Source of the DNA: a virus
Taxonomy: Duplodnaviria > Caudoviricetes
Strand: one strand, 5' to 3'
Length of the DNA: 34,220 nucleotides
Virus record (IMG/VR): IMGVR_UViG_3300046779_001348
Coordinates: 1-34,220 of that record
Below are positions 1 to 34,220 of this stretch, piece by piece. Within the stretch, counting starts at the first letter, position 1; each line of letters starts with the position of its first letter. The position numbers were made by a program, and so were the translations under genes. The notes beneath the pieces were generated by a model. The model was not told the DNA's origin, ran no database searches, and saw only the letters and a list, made by a program, of their open reading frames with translations.

Positions 1-127
1 GCGATCCATTCGGACTTCAGACCTTTGGTGACCAGGCGGATGCTGGAATCAACCATCGAATCGGTTTGAATGTCATAAACCTTGACCCACATTGGGTTTC
101 CCTGTTCGTCCACTTCCTCGCGGTCGT
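1..127. repeat. Terminal overlap (left copy), identical to 34094-34220; circular assembly signature
   Basis: gcgatccattcggac...ctcgcggtcgt at 1-127 matches the last 127 nt. A reading frame continues across the junction. Confidence 0.97.
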
Positions 128-5391: not shown

Positions 5392-5400
5392 GATGAATCC

Positions 5401-5733
5401 TTATTCGGTGGCCACCAGAGTCATATACAGGACGTTTGTCCCTGAAGAAATGGCCTTAACGTAGATGTTTGGCGAACCGCAGTCGATGACTATGGGAACC
5501 AACATCGAGGGGGGCAACACAAACGAGCCACCAGTGCCGGTCGATGCGATGGCCGGTGTGTCCATGTTTGAGTCGGTAGTGCCAAACGTGATGGCCGCAG
5601 TTCCGGTGCCTGTGTTCAACAGGGCAACGCGGAAGGCGCGGGTCGTTGTGTTTGGAACCAGTTGGAGGGCGCTTGATGCGGAGGTGGTCAGCGACAACGC
5701 ATAAGTTGGGCTGAGAATCTTGAGGGAGTCCAT
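5401..5733 (-). CDS. Hypothetical virion-associated beta-rich protein
   Basis: 110-aa ORF with GAGGA RBS, inside the structural operon. Confidence 0.8.
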   Translation of the reverse strand: MDSLKILSPTYALSLTTSASSALQLVPNTTTRAFRVALLNTGTGTAAITFGTTDSNMDTPAIASTGTGGSFVLPPSMLVPIVIDCGSPNIYVKAISSGTNVLYMTLVATE

Positions 5734-5781
5734 AATTTTCCTCGGAGTTAGTTATCCAATTATCCTATTTCTGGCGGAAAT

Positions 5782-5817
5782 AAAAAAGGGCCATCCCTTG
5801 TGAGGATAGCCCTTTTT
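5782..5817. terminator. Rho-independent terminator (bidirectional-looking) after the capsid operon
   Basis: Minus strand AAAAAGGGCTATCC-TCACAAG-GGATGGCCCTTTTTT, with T-runs on both sides. Confidence 0.85.
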
Positions 5818-5834
5818 CGAGGTTTCATCACTAC

Positions 5835-6077
5835 TTATGCAGAGGCGATGAGACCCTTGTTACGCAGTGCCACCAGGATAGCGTTGACGGCAGTAGCGAT
5901 TTCGGTGCCGGAAGCGGTGTTGCCAAGGTTAGTGATAGCACCGGCTTGGGCAACGGGGGTTGCACCGTGGAAGGCCAACAGGTCAGCGGCGGTACCAGCG
6001 ATTTGAACGCCATCGGTGGAATCGCCGTTGAATAGGTAGTTGGTCGTTTGGCTAGAGGCTGGGCCTGGGTTTGCCAT
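5835..6077 (-). CDS. Small virion protein downstream of the coat gene (head decoration-like)
   Basis: 80 aa, AAGGAA RBS. C-terminus TAVNAILVALRNKGLI is typical of head-fibre/decoration proteins. Confidence 0.75.
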   Translation of the reverse strand: MANPGPASSQTTNYLFNGDSTDGVQIAGTAADLLAFHGATPVAQAGAITNLGNTASGTEIATAVNAILVALRNKGLIASA

Positions 6078-6105
6078 GATTAGTTCCTTTCAGAAAGTTT
6101 GTAGT

Positions 6106-6196
6106 GGGGAGCAGATTGGGCGGTTCAACTAGGCCAGGTGGAAAGCGGAAAAAACCCTGGCGTCCCGCATCCTCTTATGTCCGCTTAACACTCCCC
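6106..6196 (-). ncRNA. Putative pseudoknotted structured RNA in the intergenic gap after the coat gene
   Basis: Minus-strand pairings: P1 GGGGAGU/GCUCCCC, P2 GCGG/CCGC, P3 GCCAGG/CCUGGC, and pseudoknot AAGCGGA/UCCGCUU. The G-U pair favours the minus strand. Confidence 0.6.
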
Positions 6197-6202
6197 TCCA
6201 AA

Positions 6203-7450
6203 TTAGGCAGCCACTCGGCAAGCCAGTTCAGGGTACAAGGGCGCCCAACCGTAAAGAACATCCAGACGGGTGGGGATGGAGTCGTTGTTGATCGTGTACT
6301 GACGAACCACACGAATCGACAGGCCAACATCTTTGTCGCTTGCACGGCCAGCGAAATGGACGCCATCAGGCAGTTCCAGGTCGGCAGTGGCCACGGTAAA
6401 CGCGTTGCGATGGAACACCAGGTTCTGAGGGCTGACGGCACCGGTCTTGTTGAACGGTGTGACAACGGCAGAAGCGGAGGTGGTCGTAACGCTTACGTTC
6501 TGGAATTGTCCGCCGGTGATGATGGCGGGCGAAACCGTAACGGAAGCCGAGCCGCCGGACGAAATGGTAACGGCAGACTGCACAACAAAGTTGCGGAGAA
6601 CGCCGCCGCCATAAATCTGACGGTTCTGGGGGTTGACTGCATATACGCCAGCAATCTGGATGGTGTCACCAGCCTTCAGCACCGCGTTGGCCGTGGCCGC
6701 AGAGATGGTGATGGTGGAGGTCTGTGCCCAGCCAGTGGTCAGCGAACCGGTAAAGGTTGACGTGTTGGTGGACATGGTGGCCGTGGAATAAGAACCGTAA
6801 GTGTGAGTCACGATGTTCTGATCCATGTACCAGTTCATGCCGATGGTGTCGCGACCCATCAGACCCTTCTCGTACTGCTGAGAGATGGTGCCCTGGGGGT
6901 TGAACAGTCCTTTGAGCGAACCAACGATGCTGGCACCGGTGAAGGGGTCAACAACGCAAGAACGCTTGCCATCGCGGGGAGCGCCTTCACCATCCAGGTA
7001 AGCCTGGGCGGTCAGGAACGTAGCGATGTCGGAGGGAACCGTACCGGCGGAGCCAACGGTGTTGGCAGTCTCAAGGACGGCCATGGTGGTGCCGTCATAG
7101 TCCATCTTGTTAGCGATGGCGGCGATGGCGGGCTTCAGGACGCGATCCGAGAACATATCGAGGCTCAGGGTCAGGTCTTGAGTCGTGAACTGGGTGTCAA
7201 CGTGGAATTGAGTGTCCAGGGTCACGGGGGTTGAGGTTTCGTTGAAGTCCTCTACGTTCAGCGCAGGGCCGGTCGTACCGATGAAACGGCCAGGACGGCG
7301 GACGTTCACGGTGTTACCAATCTTGGCGCCAACGATGGCGAATTGCTCGTCATAAGAACGGTCAACGCGGCCAGTAAAGGTCAGTTCGTTTTCCAAGACC
7401 ATCAACGCTTCGTTGGTGATCATGGAGATGGTTAGCAAGTTATTTGCCAT
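6203..7450 (-). CDS. Major capsid protein, P22 coat (gp5) family
   Basis: 415 aa. MANNLLTISMITNEALMVLENEL...KIGNTVNVRRP...RLDVLYGW..LYPELACR; position after portal and scaffold. Confidence 0.95.
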   Translation of the reverse strand: MANNLLTISMITNEALMVLENELTFTGRVDRSYDEQFAIVGAKIGNTVNVRRPGRFIGTTGPALNVEDFNETSTPVTLDTQFHVDTQFTTQDLTLSLDMFSDRVLKPAIAAIANKMDYDGTTMAVLETANTVGSAGTVPSDIATFLTAQAYLDGEGAPRDGKRSCVVDPFTGASIVGSLKGLFNPQGTISQQYEKGLMGRDTIGMNWYMDQNIVTHTYGSYSTATMSTNTSTFTGSLTTGWAQTSTITISAATANAVLKAGDTIQIAGVYAVNPQNRQIYGGGVLRNFVVQSAVTISSGGSASVTVSPAIITGGQFQNVSVTTTSASAVVTPFNKTGAVSPQNLVFHRNAFTVATADLELPDGVHFAGRASDKDVGLSIRVVRQYTINNDSIPTRLDVLYGWAPLYPELACRVAA

Positions 7451-7483
7451 TTTGATTCTCCAAAAATTAGATAAGGTTTACCG

Positions 7484-8419
7484 TCATCTGATTTTCCCCG
7501 CAGCGCGTGCGGCCTTCCACTGAGCAAACGTGCCATGGAATTGCCTGTTGGCATCCAGGGTAACGTCTGCGGCGCTTCCGGTCGTGCGTAGCGGCGTAAT
7601 CGGTGCCGGTGCATTTGACTTCTTAGCAACAGGTGTCGGTTGCTTGGCTTTGGGCGCAGTCTTTTCAAACTGTGCTTCGAGCCGCCCTATGGCCCTGAGT
7701 TGGGCTGGAATCGACTTTTGGGCCAATTCCTGAGCGAATTCTGGATTCTCGGCCAGGTAATACATGATTTTTGGGCCGACATCACTTTCGATAATTGCAT
7801 CAGTCACGGGCTGAGATACTGAAACGTCACTCGATGCAATCATTTCATCGTAATCGGGCATCTCGGCCTTGGTTGCTTCGAGGCGCTTCTGAAACTCCGA
7901 CCGGAGTCTCGTCTGTTCCTCTTGCGCCCTGCGGGCCATATCCGCCTGATCTCGCTCCCTCAATTTCTTGTCGGCAGTCCACTCGGCTAACGCCTTCGCA
8001 TATTCGATGGCGTCCTCAAATTGGGCGGGATCGGGTTCTGGATCAGGGTCACGCGCCTGTTGGGGTGCGTTTTGTTGCTCCAGCCTTGCCAGCCTTTCTT
8101 CGAGTTCTAACCGCGCCTGGCGCTCACGTTCCGCTTCTAGGCGGGCCGCTTCGCGTTGCTTGGTCAGTTCCGAAAACCGCTTTTCAAGTTTCGGGTTTTG
8201 CTTCTTTTCACCTGTCGCAGCCTCTTTTTCGCCTTCGGGTTCACTCTCAGCCTGTTGCTCAACCATCGGCTCCGCCTCATTGGCGGCCTCAACGGGAGCA
8301 GATTCAGGGGCTAAACCCAATTTCTTGGCAGTAAATTCGGCCAAATTCTCACTGGTAATAACATTCGCAGCCTGTTTGGGTTGCGGTGTCGTATCGACTA
8401 CTTGTGCTGCATCAGACAT
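7484..8419 (-). CDS. Scaffolding protein
   Basis: 311 aa, acidic coiled coil, C-terminal APAPITPL...WKAAR; lies between portal and coat. Confidence 0.85.
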   Translation of the reverse strand: MSDAAQVVDTTPQPKQAANVITSENLAEFTAKKLGLAPESAPVEAANEAEPMVEQQAESEPEGEKEAATGEKKQNPKLEKRFSELTKQREAARLEAERERQARLELEERLARLEQQNAPQQARDPDPEPDPAQFEDAIEYAKALAEWTADKKLRERDQADMARRAQEEQTRLRSEFQKRLEATKAEMPDYDEMIASSDVSVSQPVTDAIIESDVGPKIMYYLAENPEFAQELAQKSIPAQLRAIGRLEAQFEKTAPKAKQPTPVAKKSNAPAPITPLRTTGSAADVTLDANRQFHGTFAQWKAARAAGKIR

Positions 8420-12419: not shown

Positions 12420-12671
12420 ATGGCCAAGAAGATTGTTTTCTACTGCGGGTTTAATCCTAAGACTGGGTGCGGATACGTTCGCAATGGCCAGGCTTATCTT
12501 GAGATGGATGACTCGCAACGGGTGCAAGTGGTTCGGGACGTTATCGCAGAGTTATGCGATGAGTTGGACTTTCTTACTGAGCGGGCGCTTGGTTTAAGTA
12601 CGCCATCAGTTTGTCCAGAGCCTCCTGATCAAACACCTCGCCGTGGTGACTCATCTGAAACGACCGCATGA
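12420..12671 (+). CDS. Small hypothetical protein, convergent and overlapping with the 462-aa gene (candidate immunity/antitoxin)
   Basis: 83 aa, AAGGGGAA RBS, own predicted promoter; fills an otherwise empty gap. Confidence 0.7.
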   Translation: MAKKIVFYCGFNPKTGCGYVRNGQAYLEMDDSQRVQVVRDVIAELCDELDFLTERALGLSTPSVCPEPPDQTPRRGDSSETTA

Positions 12672-13962
12672 TTTGAGGGTCTTTTTTGCCCATTTGACGC
12701 ATCCGGCCAATGGTCTTGGGGAACATCAAGTCCACGGGGACGCCAGTGGTGCCACCGGTTCGGCTGGCGATTCCACCCATATATTGGCCAGGGATGCCCG
12801 CAGAGTATGAACGGTGTGCAAAGTCAGGCGTCATGGTTTCTAGGGTTGGTTTAGCAGCAAACATAGTGCGGCCAGCCTCACCCTGAACCAGGCCAGGCTC
12901 TGACATTACCCGTGCCGTATCTTCCCAGCGTGGGAAGCCCATATCCCTAAACTTAGCCTTGCTCATTGACTGCACAATGGCCGTCCGCAGGGCACCAGGC
13001 GCAAACTCTTTGCTGCCAGTGCTAATCAATTCTTCGATGTTGGGCGAGTCCACGCCCGCAAAGTTAGCAAACGGATAACGCTTTTGGCCGGTCTTGGGGT
13101 CTTTAACCCAGGTGTTCCGAATGTCGGCGTTCAGTTGCTTATAGGCGTCTTTGCTGACCCGCAGGGCCGGCAGTTGACGGATCATGCCTTCGGCCATGTG
13201 GTGGCTGAAGTCGATGCCCTGGGGAGACATACCCGTAAACACCCCGACAACGTCCTCACCCTTTTGGGCAAATTTGCCAAGGTTGGCGGTCTTGCTAGAC
13301 GCAGCAGCCGGCTCAGAGGCCCAGGCCACGCCCTGGCGGACGTTTTGCTCAATGGTCGGATACAGGCGCCCTCCCTGCTGAGACACTATGCTCGACAGAG
13401 GAACGCCGGCAATTTGACTGACATCACCGCCGACTGTGGATAAGTCACCCATTACGGGCACCAGGCGCTTACCAACCAGGTTTGATGGATCGATGGGGAT
13501 TTCTCGCACCATCGTCAGCCCAGGTGTTGGCGTGACAATGTCTTGGCCACCAATCCGCATTTCCTCTCGGCGGCGCACCGCGGGGTTTTTGAGAGCCCCC
13601 TCGAATCGGGTGATGGCGGACTTTTCCGCGGAAGTTAGGTTTGATGCTGCGCGGCCAGGGTAGAGCAGTTCATTAAGGGGGATGCCCTTAAACTTGGTCA
13701 TTCCCATCGGGCCGGCATAAGCCTCCGCTAGGGTGTTTTGGATACGCTGGTCGGCTGCGGCCTGTTCCGCAGTTGGTGTTCGGCCCTCCAACCGAGCGGC
13801 ATATGCGTCCGCAGACAGTTGGAGGTCTCGGTTATGTTCGCCAGCCTGGTAGTTCAGTTGGTTTACAAACTGTTCCAACGTGCCACCAGGATCAGCGGCG
13901 AACGCCTTCATCTTCCGCTTGGCGGTGTTGCCCGCGCTGAAGATGTCGGCCAGCAACGGCAT
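12574..13962 (-). CDS. Uncharacterised 462-aa protein (helical N-terminus plus globular, possibly enzymatic C-terminal domain)
   Basis: Long ORF coupled to the upstream small gene. Motifs VMGDLS..QQGG..WAS..IDFSHH..HRSY; no family recognised with confidence. Confidence 0.85.
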   Translation of the reverse strand: MPLLADIFSAGNTAKRKMKAFAADPGGTLEQFVNQLNYQAGEHNRDLQLSADAYAARLEGRTPTAEQAAADQRIQNTLAEAYAGPMGMTKFKGIPLNELLYPGRAASNLTSAEKSAITRFEGALKNPAVRRREEMRIGGQDIVTPTPGLTMVREIPIDPSNLVGKRLVPVMGDLSTVGGDVSQIAGVPLSSIVSQQGGRLYPTIEQNVRQGVAWASEPAAASSKTANLGKFAQKGEDVVGVFTGMSPQGIDFSHHMAEGMIRQLPALRVSKDAYKQLNADIRNTWVKDPKTGQKRYPFANFAGVDSPNIEELISTGSKEFAPGALRTAIVQSMSKAKFRDMGFPRWEDTARVMSEPGLVQGEAGRTMFAAKPTLETMTPDFAHRSYSAGIPGQYMGGIASRTGGTTGVPVDLMFPKTIGRMRQMGKKDPQIMRSFQMSHHGEVFDQEALDKLMAYLNQAPAQ

Positions 13963-18613: not shown

Positions 18614-18654
18614 TCAAATTGTAGTCATTGCAATTAACCAACCGGAGTGAAGAA

Positions 18655-18870
18655 ATGAACGTAACCAAGATCAAAGCGGGCAAGTACGAAATCAACGCAA
18701 ACGGGTTTGTCTTTACCCTTGTAAACGACTGCGGGCACTGGGTTCTGTCCAATAAAGCAGATGTTGAGTTAATGCGCGACTCCACCAAAACCGCCATCCT
18801 TAACGCTTTGCGTACTTACGATGGCCACGGTTTGGAAAGCCTCAACACCCAAGAATGGTGTTCTTACTAA
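18655..18870 (+). CDS. Early hypothetical protein (71 aa)
   Basis: CGGAGTGAAGAA-ATG; MNVTKIKAGKYEINANG... Confidence 0.8.
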   Translation: MNVTKIKAGKYEINANGFVFTLVNDCGHWVLSNKADVELMRDSTKTAILNALRTYDGHGLESLNTQEWCSY

Positions 18871-18879
18871 ACAAACCCT

Positions 18880-18893
18880 GGGGCTTCGGCCCC
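18880..18893 (+). repeat. GGGGCTTCGGCCCC UUCG hairpin, copy 1
   Basis: Also at 19593-19608 and 19858-19873. Confidence 0.85.
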
Positions 18894-18910
18894 ATCATCG
18901 GAGAGAAGAA

Positions 18911-19204
18911 ATGAACGCAATCGACATCGAAATTACCCAAATTGACCGCCTGGGTCTGTTGCTGGCTCAAATCGCTGACCTTACCAAAGAGGCCGAGTCC
19001 ATCAAAAACGCTATGAAAGACGCGGCCACCGCCGGCGGCCCATCCGCCTTCGAGGGCAATCTCTACAAGGCCACCGTGGTCTGCGCCAACCGTAAGGTCG
19101 TTGACTACTCTGCCCTGCTGGCCGAGTTGAACTGCACCGATGACCAGTTGGCCACCTTCACCAAGACCACCGCAGTGTTCTCGGTTAAGACCGTCAGCCG
19201 ATAA
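18911..19204 (+). CDS. Early hypothetical protein (97 aa, N-terminal coiled coil)
   Basis: CGGAGAGAAGAA-ATG; IDRLGLLLAQIADLTKEAESIK...FEGNLYKATV. Confidence 0.85.
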   Translation: MNAIDIEITQIDRLGLLLAQIADLTKEAESIKNAMKDAATAGGPSAFEGNLYKATVVCANRKVVDYSALLAELNCTDDQLATFTKTTAVFSVKTVSR

Positions 19205-19250
19205 AAATAGGGGGGAGGGTTTCCCCCTATAAAAAAAATCAAAAAAACAC

Positions 19251-19280
19251 TTGACACAGTTTACAAAGACGGTTTACTAT
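19251..19280 (+). promoter_or_regulatory. Rightward early promoter 2
   Basis: Long A-tracts, then TTGACA-18 nt-TACTAT; GACGGTTTAC box overlaps the -10. Confidence 0.8.
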
Positions 19281-19322
19281 TTAATCACGGTCAACGTTGA
19301 CCGGATAAATCGGAGAGAAGAA

Positions 19323-19586
19323 ATGAACACTTACCCACGCTACTCAGTCCAGCCCTTCAGCCTGTGGACAGAAAAAACAAACCACGGCGGCACCGAAAAC
19401 AGTATGCCCTGCGCCATCTGCGGCAAACAGATCAAGACTGACAACCCTAACGCAATTTGGGTCACCATCGTCAACGGTGGCGATTGGGCCGCTAACGAAC
19501 AAGAGGCCAACGATGACGGTGACGCTGGCTTTATGGGCGGATACCCAGTCGGTTCTGACTGCCACAAAAAGTATCTGATCAAGTAA
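19323..19586 (+). CDS. Early Zn-finger-like protein (87 aa)
   Basis: CGGAGAGAAGAA-ATG; CAICGK...PVGSDCHKK. Confidence 0.85.
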   Translation: MNTYPRYSVQPFSLWTEKTNHGGTENSMPCAICGKQIKTDNPNAIWVTIVNGGDWAANEQEANDDGDAGFMGGYPVGSDCHKKYLIK

Positions 19587-19592
19587 ATCAAC

Positions 19593-19608
19593 GGGGGCTT
19601 CGGCCCCC
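19593..19608 (+). repeat. GGGGGCTTCGGCCCCC UUCG hairpin, copy 2
   Basis: Between a stop codon and the next RBS. Confidence 0.85.
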
Positions 19609-19625
19609 ACACTCGGAGAGAAAAA

Positions 19626-19853
19626 ATGAAAACACTCAAACACACCATCGAAGCCCACGCGATTGACGAAATTGAATACGTTGATGGGCACCGCCACGCA
19701 GAGCCTGGCTGGTTCATATTCCTCAAAGACGGTTGCAGTTTCGACCCGATGGACGTCAACGACAATTGCCGGTTCGTTCCAGCCAGTAATCCAGATGAGG
19801 CCATGAATTTGCTAGTGGTCGAACACCCTGGATACACGCCAGACCTGTCATAA
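19626..19853 (+). CDS. Early hypothetical protein (75 aa, acidic)
   Basis: CGGAGAGAAAAA-ATG. Confidence 0.8.
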   Translation: MKTLKHTIEAHAIDEIEYVDGHRHAEPGWFIFLKDGCSFDPMDVNDNCRFVPASNPDEAMNLLVVEHPGYTPDLS

Positions 19854-19857
19854 GGGC

Positions 19858-19873
19858 GGGGGCTTCGGCCCCC
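19858..19873 (+). repeat. GGGGGCTTCGGCCCCC UUCG hairpin, copy 3
   Basis: Directly abuts the -35 of promoter 3. Confidence 0.85.
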
Positions 19874-19902
19874 TTGCAAACCGTTTGTAGACCGTTTACA
19901 AT
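19874..19902 (+). promoter_or_regulatory. Rightward early promoter 3
   Basis: TTGCAA-17 nt (accgtttgtagaccgtt)-TACAAT, with two boxes. Confidence 0.8.
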
Positions 19903-19931
19903 TACCTCACACAATCACTCGGAGAGAAGAA

Positions 19932-20093
19932 ATGCGACAAGACCTAATCGAAACGCTGGAGTGCAAAGAGGCCGAGTTGGCCGCGCTCCACGCCATCCCA
20001 GAGGACGATATGACCGCCGAGCAGTTGGCGCAGTATCAGTCCCTCGACCGCCAAATCATTTCGCTTAAACAATCCATCGACCAAGGGGAATAA
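19932..20093 (+). CDS. Small helical protein (53 aa, not in the ORF track)
   Basis: CGGAGAGAAGAA-ATG; MRQDLIETLECKEAELAALHAIPEDDMTAEQLAQYQSLDRQIISLKQSIDQGE. Confidence 0.8.
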   Translation: MRQDLIETLECKEAELAALHAIPEDDMTAEQLAQYQSLDRQIISLKQSIDQGE

Positions 20094-33887: not shown

Positions 33888-34220
33888 TTGGCCACCCTTG
33901 GGCGTTAACCACGGCAATCAGTTCCTCAACGGACGCGCAAGCGGCAATCGCAGCCTCCAGGCGGTCGGCCTCGGCAATGATGGCAGCACGTTTGGTGGCC
34001 ACCGCGTCAGGAATGGCAACGTCACGCTCGGCCTTGCGAATTACCGTCCAGTCGGTATGGGCCAGCATAGAACCGGCAGTCTGTTTGACCTGGGCGATCC
34101 ATTCGGACTTCAGACCTTTGGTGACCAGGCGGATGCTGGAATCAACCATCGAATCGGTTTGAATGTCATAAACCTTGACCCACATTGGGTTTCCCTGTTC
34201 GTCCACTTCCTCGCGGTCGT
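33874..34220 (-). CDS. 3' part of the junction-spanning tail-fibre chaperone-like gene (starts at 314)
   Basis: LAHTDWTVIRKAE...IPDAVATKRAAI...WP motif; the frame is open to the window end. Confidence 0.85.
   Translation of the reverse strand, partial: DREEVDEQGNPMWVKVYDIQTDSMVDSSIRLVTKGLKSEWIAQVKQTAGSMLAHTDWTVIRKAERDVAIPDAVATKRAAIIAEADRLEAAIAACASVEELIAVVNAQGWPNDRV
34094..34220. repeat. Terminal overlap (right copy)
   Basis: Identical to 1-127. Confidence 0.97.

What the first reader, a model, noticed from the sequence alone, without database searches (positions are those of the whole stretch)
6106..6196. Compact pseudoknotted RNA between the coat gene and the next virion gene
The 125-nt gap is unusual in an otherwise tightly coupled operon. 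On the minus strand it folds as P1 (6196-6190/6112-6106), P2 GCGG/CCGC and P3 GCCAGG/CCUGGC. The P3 loop UCCGCUU pairs with AAGCGGA next to P1 (7-bp pseudoknot). Unpaired GAGGAU and CUAGUUGAA segments remain. The 5' GCGG can alternatively pair with the 3' CCGC, allowing a switch. It has no U-tail, so it is not a terminator. It could be a self-cleaving ribozyme, riboswitch or processing element setting coat-to-decoration stoichiometry, or a small mobile RNA element.
Basis: partly seen in the sequence, partly recalled or inferred. Interest (0 to 1): 0.7.

Follow-up and report, generated by a model that had tools for sequence, protein, structure and literature searches.

The report
Phage knotted RNA behind capsid gene
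The 91 bases behind this phage's capsid gene are a strongly conserved knotted RNA fold, a compact relative of two unexplained Agrobacterium small RNAs found at unrelated sites in many phages and bacteria; it is likely cut out as a stable free RNA that would bind a host protein, rather than acting as a switch for the next gene.

Summary
The structure is real. With all seven pseudoknot pairs left free in a viral scan, 102 of 105 distinct matches were complementary and six pairs covary; the other helices covary too. The proposed GCGG/CCGC switch is possible in only 2 of 146 copies. The element is a compact relative of Rfam Atu_At1 (RF02496; 37.4 bits, cut-off 60), whose members At1 and Ti2 are discrete ~113-nt Agrobacterium RNAs of unknown function. 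It is an accessory insert: 1 of 79 coat relatives carries it. About 1,000 IMG/VR stretches hold it (estimate), beside unrelated genes, abutting tRNAs, or opposite to both neighbours; bacterial copies have their own promoter-like motifs. At1 and Ti2 are not on the Hfq-enriched list. Best reading (0.5): a nuclease-resistant, likely triple-helical RNA released from the late transcript and acting in trans on a host protein. Cis mRNA stabiliser 0.22; riboswitch and ribozyme less likely. The scan found this family before on other DNA (16 findings); new here are the gain/loss evidence at the coat junction and the stand-alone compact copies in Polynucleobacter.

The parts
6106..6196 (-). Compact At1/Ti2-like pseudoknotted RNA (91 nt)
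   Evidence: Rfam RF02496 37.4 bits, E 1e-4, model 1-108; own model R1 88.4 bits, single copy in the window (R1 includes this sequence)
6190..6196 (-). P1 5' strand (pairs with 6106-6112)
   Evidence: family P1 6 of 6 pairs with double-sided changes; register here is shifted one base from the family consensus
6106..6112 (-). P1 3' strand
6187..6189 (-). Invariant GUY; G6189 pairs with C6179
   Evidence: GUY 109 of 111 and G-C 109 of 111 with these columns free
6180..6186 (-). Pseudoknot 5' strand AAGCGGA
   Evidence: 102 of 105 complementary with all 7 pairs free
6143..6149 (-). Pseudoknot 3' strand UCCGCUU in the P4 loop
6150..6153 (-). Invariant UUUU, predicted third strand in the major groove of the pseudoknot helix
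   Evidence: UUUU in 109 of 111 when free; triple-helix role is inference
6141..6142 (-). Invariant UC after the pseudoknot strand
   Evidence: 108 of 111 when free
6173..6175 (-).
   Evidence: helix 4: 96.1% paired, 3 of 4 pairs covary
6169..6172 (-). Conserved internal loop GGAU, facing CCAA 6116-6119 (family consensus CAAA)
   Evidence: alignment A1
6165..6168 (-). P3 GCGG (pairs with CCGC 6120-6123)
   Evidence: helix 5: 5 of 5 pairs covary
6156..6161 (-). P4 GCCAGG (pairs with CCUGGC 6133-6138)
   Evidence: helix 6: 6 of 6 pairs covary
6124..6132 (-). Variable segment CUAGUUGAA, in place of the extra hairpin of At1-type copies
6203..7450 (-). Upstream P22-like major capsid protein gene (415 aa)
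   Evidence: phrog_283, E 1e-75
6084..6091 (-). Ribosome-binding site of the next gene, outside the fold; same motif in relatives without the insert
5835..6077 (-). Downstream 80-aa gene, putative head fibre/decoration protein
   Evidence: no PHROG or Pfam hit; Atlas clusters auto-named head fibre at 0.97-0.98, PF11133 on 17% of one cluster: a lead only

Best explanation
This is a compact At1/Ti2-type pseudoknotted RNA inserted behind the capsid gene; it is likely transcribed as part of the late mRNA, likely trimmed by host RNases to the base of its closing stem, and would then accumulate as a stable free RNA that likely binds a host protein (not Hfq) through its conserved three-dimensional core. 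Shown: the fold, the family link, the patchy insertion and the gene-independent placement of homologues. Inferred: a U-rich third strand on the pseudoknot helix, release by processing, action in trans, and a protein target, probably one that matters in stressed or stationary cells. Placement right behind highly expressed genes (capsid, ssDNA-binding proteins) or in tRNA runs would serve to make many copies.
For: Fold. Family; Ti2 is an At1 homologue (one search hit H106; 80.5 bits). Discrete RNA whose ends match the closing stem: At1 113-115 nt, Ti2 113 nt (PMC3384568 passages; mapped on the sequence); At1 ends confirmed by RACE, read counts unchanged by TEX (PMC3738593). Gene independence: among 115 viral copies with flanks, neighbours were same/same 68, same/opposite 23, opposite/opposite 12, opposite/same 11, 1 unresolved; neighbours include capsid, SSB, exonuclease, polymerase, terminase, endolysin, HNH; five copies lie 0-5 nt from a same-strand tRNA; 5 of 9 Polynucleobacter copies printed lie opposite to both neighbours and 7 of 9 share an upstream AGAAC...TAAAG motif (read by eye). 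EcfG-type promoter motif (consensus recalled) before 81 of 122 cellular copies, 0 of 449 control positions, 0 of 170 viral copies. The pseudoknot sequence varies freely, so it is no fixed antisense seed; neither At1 nor Ti2 is on the Hfq-enriched list (PMC4201532 Table S6). No sigma-70 promoter in 5600-6600, so this copy depends on read-through.
Against: No partner protein identified and no binding shown. No reads cover this element, so expression and ends of this copy are untested. Deleting Ti2 did not change tumour formation (PMC3384568, data not shown there). Lee et al. read Ti2 as possibly part of a 207-nt 5' UTR, and the upstream gene is co-oriented in 91 of 115 viral copies: both also fit a cis stabiliser. 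Neighbour calls are crude ORF picks; of the 12 opposite/opposite viral cases one (L212) looks like a chance match and three have doubtful upstream ORFs. The RNA is sporadic in hosts too (10 of 71 Polynucleobacter genomes, lower bound).
Confidence: 0.5

Rival explanations
1. Cis-acting nuclease barrier: the knot blocks exonucleases, stabilising the coat mRNA behind which it sits (or the 5' end of stress mRNAs in rhizobia); the discrete RNA is a left-over.
For: Starts 4-6 nt after stop codons of capsid and SSB genes in several lineages; 14 coat relatives have a plain GC hairpin at the same site; Ti2 shares a promoter with the downstream operon and accumulates far above it.
Against: Copies opposite to both neighbours in phages and Polynucleobacter and copies abutting tRNAs have no mRNA to protect; 64 coat relatives need neither hairpin nor knot.
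Confidence: 0.22
2. Small-molecule aptamer (riboswitch or ligand sponge); the U-rich pseudoknot groove forms a pocket as in SAM-II or preQ1-II RNAs (recalled).
For: Many invariant unpaired bases around a pseudoknot; many alphaproteobacterial copies lie 5' of a gene.
Against: Downstream genes share no pathway (LigD, SDR, PAS kinase, porin, HlyD, RecQ and others); the switch pairing is in 2 of 146 copies; loop-RBS duplex -4.1 against pseudoknot -9.4 kcal/mol; many copies have no downstream gene in sense.
Confidence: 0.12
3. Selfish or neutral mobile RNA cassette that spreads by recombination and is kept only because it is harmless.
For: Patchy on the coat tree; nearest relatives also stand before terminase small subunit genes (0.85, 0.79 identity); sporadic in Polynucleobacter.
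Against: Strict covariation and invariant core across phages and two proteobacterial classes; recruited to different promoters (EcfG-like, VirG) ; no transposase, reverse transcriptase or target duplication seen at this site.
Confidence: 0.1
4. New self-cleaving ribozyme that processes the late transcript or adjacent tRNAs, like theta ribozymes.
For: Compact knotted fold in phage intergenic space; three copies start 0-3 nt after a tRNA 3' end, the theta-ribozyme context (PMC10879173, abstract).
Against: No Rfam ribozyme hit at E <= 10; topology is not HDV-like; At1 and Ti2 are reported at one full-length size; two copies stand before, not after, a tRNA; rhizobial copies begin at the transcription start, where 5' cleavage would do nothing.
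Confidence: 0.06

Closest known systems
Rfam RF02496 Atu_At1 (Agrobacterium fabrum C58 At1 on pAt and Ti2 on pTi; PMC3384568, PMC3738593)
   Same: Closing stem, GUYAA, the GAU internal loop, the P4 hairpin with UUUUUC-NNN-UUUC loop, identical spacing and the complementary 7-bp pseudoknot strands; reciprocal hit of the compact-only model R1 to At1 (26.5 bits, E 0.0036).
   Different: 37.4 bits, below the cut-off of 60; lacks the extra hairpin and the AGNCGAG segment; no own promoter; Rfam's structure shows a small hairpin where covariation shows a 7-bp pseudoknot (16:24 pairing 62 of 111 against 24:55 pairing 109 of 111).
Viral candidate motifs 42510.fasta.motif.h1_1 and 42511.fasta.motif.h2_1 (PMC10690425, supplementary file 3)
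   Same: Listed there as IMG/VR motifs matching RF02496, so phage occurrence of the family is on record.
   Different: Set aside there as already in Rfam; I could not see the alignments (files too large), so whether they are the compact form is unknown.
U-rich triple-helix RNAs: telomerase pseudoknot, ENE, SAM-II (recalled, no call)
   Same: A U-rich loop strand placed to cross the major groove of a pseudoknot helix whose first pairs keep purine on one strand (A-U 104 of 105; second pair purine-pyrimidine 105 of 105).
   Different: No sequence or model match; loop-loop topology inside a closing stem; triples not shown.
Theta (HDV-like) ribozymes (PMC10879173, abstract)
   Same: Small phage RNAs, some directly behind tRNAs.
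   Different: Different helix order, only 9 of 187 copies have a tRNA in the fetched flank, no cleavage evidence.

Membership tests
RF02496 Atu_At1 | Score at or above the gathering cut-off (60 bits) | tested here: not met
   37.4 bits; seven long-type phage copies and Ti2 do pass, ten compact copies were not listed at E <= 0.1
RF02496 Atu_At1 | Core sequence GUYAA...GAC, GAU, UUUUUC-NNN-UUUC in the same spacing | tested here: met
RF02496 Atu_At1 | Extra hairpin and AGNCGAG segment 3' of P4 | tested here: not met
   replaced by CUAGUUGAA
RF02496 Atu_At1 | Complementarity between the 5' loop and the P4 loop | tested here: met
RF02496 Atu_At1 | Accumulates as a discrete stable RNA | tested here: inconclusive
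   no contig of four runs covered the element
Riboswitch | Conserved expression platform (alternative pairing, terminator or RBS sequestration) | tested here: not met
   2 of 146 alternative pairing; RBS outside the fold; no terminator
Riboswitch | Consistent position 5' of genes of one pathway | tested here: not met
Riboswitch | Ligand binding | not testable with these tools
   needs probing
Known self-cleaving ribozyme classes | Match to a class model | tested here: not met
   no ribozyme among Rfam hits at E <= 10
Known self-cleaving ribozyme classes | Site-specific self-cleavage | not testable with these tools
   needs an in vitro assay
Hfq-dependent base-pairing sRNA | Hfq enrichment and a conserved exposed seed | tested here: not met
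   At1 and Ti2 absent from PMC4201532 Table S6; loop sequence covaries within the RNA
Intrinsic terminator | Hairpin followed by a U-tract | tested here: not met
Triple-helix RNAs (telomerase/ENE-like) | U.A-U major-groove triples | not testable with these tools
   conservation pattern fits; needs structure

The most novel reading that the evidence does not exclude
An unrecognised class of triple-helical, nuclease-proof RNA that both bacterial stress regulons and around a thousand phage contigs use as an RNA-only decoy or inhibitor of a host RNA-decay or defence nuclease; phages plug it in behind their most expressed genes to make it in capsid-like amounts.
Probability: 0.2. Interest if true: 0.8.

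Novelty: new variant of a known kind. Interest (0 to 1): 0.5.

Why it matters
RF02496 is catalogued as a Rhizobiales sRNA with no function and without its pseudoknot. The data here show a much larger, mostly phage-borne class with an unusually well-supported 7-bp pseudoknot, a 91-nt minimal form that is easy to probe or crystallise, and natural with/without pairs of close phages at one junction. If it acts in trans on a host protein it would be a new RNA tool of phage host control shared with the bacterial stress response; if it is a nuclease barrier it would be a portable bacterial mRNA stabiliser.

Tried and rejected
Thermodynamic folding gave no signal. Readthrough or a -1 frameshift fusing coat to the next gene: stop codons intervene (read). 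A pattern from the Rfam consensus found 0 viral matches. BLAST against named phages found only coat and flank matches. Four public runs laid on 5400-7500 covered only pieces from relatives, none the element: uninformative. The careful coat tree did not finish; the quick tree was used. A TATAAT-like test before viral copies was uninformative (22 of 115, no control). Paper searches: 'Atu_At1' 0; Agrobacterium/At1/pAt terms 0; 'RF02496' 2 listings on unrelated topics, not opened; Ti2 searches gave only the two 2012-2013 papers; structured-RNA/phage searches gave PMC10690425 and one review listing. No function for the family was found in these searches. Earlier notes on this genome or by sequence: none.

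Full report
Setting. The window is a complete 34.2-kb virus record with direct terminal repeats, a P22-like phage: terminase, portal, scaffold and major capsid gene on the minus strand. The capsid gene stops at 6203 and an 80-aa gene, a putative head fibre (lead only), starts at 6077, leaving 125 nt.

Observation. Folding energy is unremarkable (z -0.27). Rfam gives nothing at gathering level but one full-length sub-threshold hit, Atu_At1 RF02496, 37.4 bits, E 1e-4. A BLAST hit in a Rhizobium plasmid scored 98.9 bits for the same family and shares the core with the window.

Covariation. Pattern scans of viral contigs gave many homologues. Because patterns fix letters, I repeated them with different columns free. 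Three central pairs free: 40 of 89 distinct matches were fully Watson-Crick, the rest mostly chance matches. Five pairs free: 86 of 88 distinct copies among the 96 newly fetched loci. All seven free: 102 of 105 distinct copies among 117 new loci; pair 1 is A-U in 104, pair 2 is purine-pyrimidine in 105. On a 51-sequence alignment of compact copies (picked from the scans, long-type and near-duplicate copies left out) 95.1% of cells paired, 23 of 29 pairs changed on both sides, and slid controls gave 31-43% (its helix 2 is the rejected hairpin). GUY, a G-C lone pair, UUUU and UC stay invariant when free (109, 109, 109 and 108 of 111). The fold is thus: closing stem P1; a 5' loop held by one G-C pair; P2; a GGAU/CAAA internal loop; P3; P4 whose loop pairs back with the 5' loop. 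The UUUU strand must cross the pseudoknot helix parallel to its purine strand; from recall of telomerase and ENE structures I infer U.A-U triples. That is not shown.

The switch. The GCGG/CCGC alternative is possible in 2 of 146 compact copies, both at the coat site; the ribosome-binding site lies outside the fold and a loop-RBS duplex is weaker than the pseudoknot. There is no sigma-70 promoter in 5600-6600 and no terminator at the element.

Presence and absence. Of the 80 best coat relatives (of 600 confirmed), 79 had downstream sequence and one, L015, carries the RNA (confirmed with model R1). Adding loci found by pattern, junctions were tight in 64 rows, a plain hairpin in 14 and the RNA in 7 rows, which are four records including the window. 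On the quick coat tree of 68 unique rows the RNA label needs three changes, all forced by starred branches; L114 is a long branch and gain cannot be told from loss. The three coat-site lineages hold each other's closest RNAs (0.88, 0.86), followed by copies before terminase small subunit genes (0.85, 0.79). One origin at this junction, spread by recombination or lost repeatedly, and relocation between sites, fit best.

Elsewhere. About 960-1,100 viral stretches hold the compact form (estimates). Of 115 viral copies with enough flank, 68 lie between co-oriented genes, 23 before a convergent gene, 11 after a divergent gene and 12 opposite to both (crude ORF picks, one of the 12 probably false). 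Neighbours are unrelated: two capsid families, several SSB families, exonucleases, polymerases, terminase, endolysin, HNH (86 of 132 cluster representatives scanned). Nine of 187 copies have a tRNA in the flank, five within 0-5 nt on the same strand. In genomes the scan returned 120 of about 360 stretches, mostly Rhizobiales, some Rhodobacterales and Betaproteobacteria. An EcfG-type promoter motif (consensus recalled; EcfG control of ncRNAs in Rhizobium etli seen in passages of PMC3892343) precedes 81 of 122 cellular copies, 0 of 449 control positions; downstream genes share no pathway. The compact form occurs in 10 of 71 Polynucleobacter genomes (lower bound); 9 of 12 loci matched my pattern, their neighbours looked cellular (not scanned), 5 of the 9 lie opposite to both neighbours and 7 share an upstream motif.

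Literature. PMC3384568 (abstract and passages): At1, 113-115 nt, strongest at high density; Ti2, 113 nt, VirA/VirG-induced, far more abundant than the downstream mRNA from the same promoter, deletion without tumour phenotype. The reported ends match the closing stem. Ti2 is an At1 homologue, a lead taken from earlier scan notes and checked. PMC3738593 (passages): At1 ends by RACE, Ti2 possibly a 5' UTR. PMC4201532 (passages; Table S6 rows around both coordinates): neither RNA is listed as Hfq-enriched. PMC10690425 (passages, supplementary file 3 rows): two IMG/VR motifs match RF02496; alignments in files I could not read may show whether the compact form was seen. PMC10879173: abstract only.

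Mechanism. The only reading that covers promoter-driven stand-alone copies, tRNA-abutting copies and copies behind capsid or SSB stops is a discrete RNA acting in trans (0.5). Here it has no promoter, so it would be released from the late transcript by host RNases and trimmed to P1. The loop sequence is consumed by the pseudoknot and Hfq enrichment is absent, which points away from antisense action and towards a shape-recognised protein target; which protein is unknown. A cis nuclease barrier (0.22) explains the coat-site placement and the hairpins of relatives but not the stand-alone copies. Aptamer (0.12), neutral cassette (0.1) and ribozyme (0.06) follow. Expression of this copy is untested.

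Verdict. Real, strongly conserved, a compact variant of a catalogued family of unknown function; it fails the Rfam cut-off and lacks one hairpin, so it is filed as a variant, not a member. The scan has met the family before (16 findings). Interest 0.5.

Noticed in passing
window 18641-19952 (+): Five copies of a ~20-nt leader ending in the start codon precede successive small early genes (families D3, D4): a repeated gene-cassette leader.
   Followed up: no
window 12574-13962 (-): 462-aa orphan ORF upstream of the terminase genes; no PHROG or Pfam hit and no Atlas match above 0.75.
   Followed up: partly
window 5786-5799 (-): Terminator-like hairpin with U-tract after the 80-aa gene; it may end a coat-element-head fibre transcript.
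   Followed up: no
window 5835-6077; L001, L022, L114 downstream genes: The gene after the coat comes in two forms that share only the first ~12 codons and swap among close relatives, a sign of recombination at the very junction where the RNA is gained or lost.
   Followed up: no
L100 2268-2361, L102 2484-2577, L103 2484-2576, L153: Minimal ~80-nt copies with shortened P3/P4, often opposite to both neighbours: good constructs for structure work.
   Followed up: partly
L612-L620 upstream of the RNA: Shared upstream motif (ATGTGTGCTG...AGAAC...TATAAAG-like) travels with the Polynucleobacter copies between unrelated sites; sigma factor unknown.
   Followed up: partly
L408 cluster (30 viral loci): The commonest viral site is just behind a phrog_298 exonuclease gene.
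   Followed up: no
window 1-127 and 34094-34220: Exact 127-nt terminal repeat, consistent with a circular assembly.
   Followed up: yes
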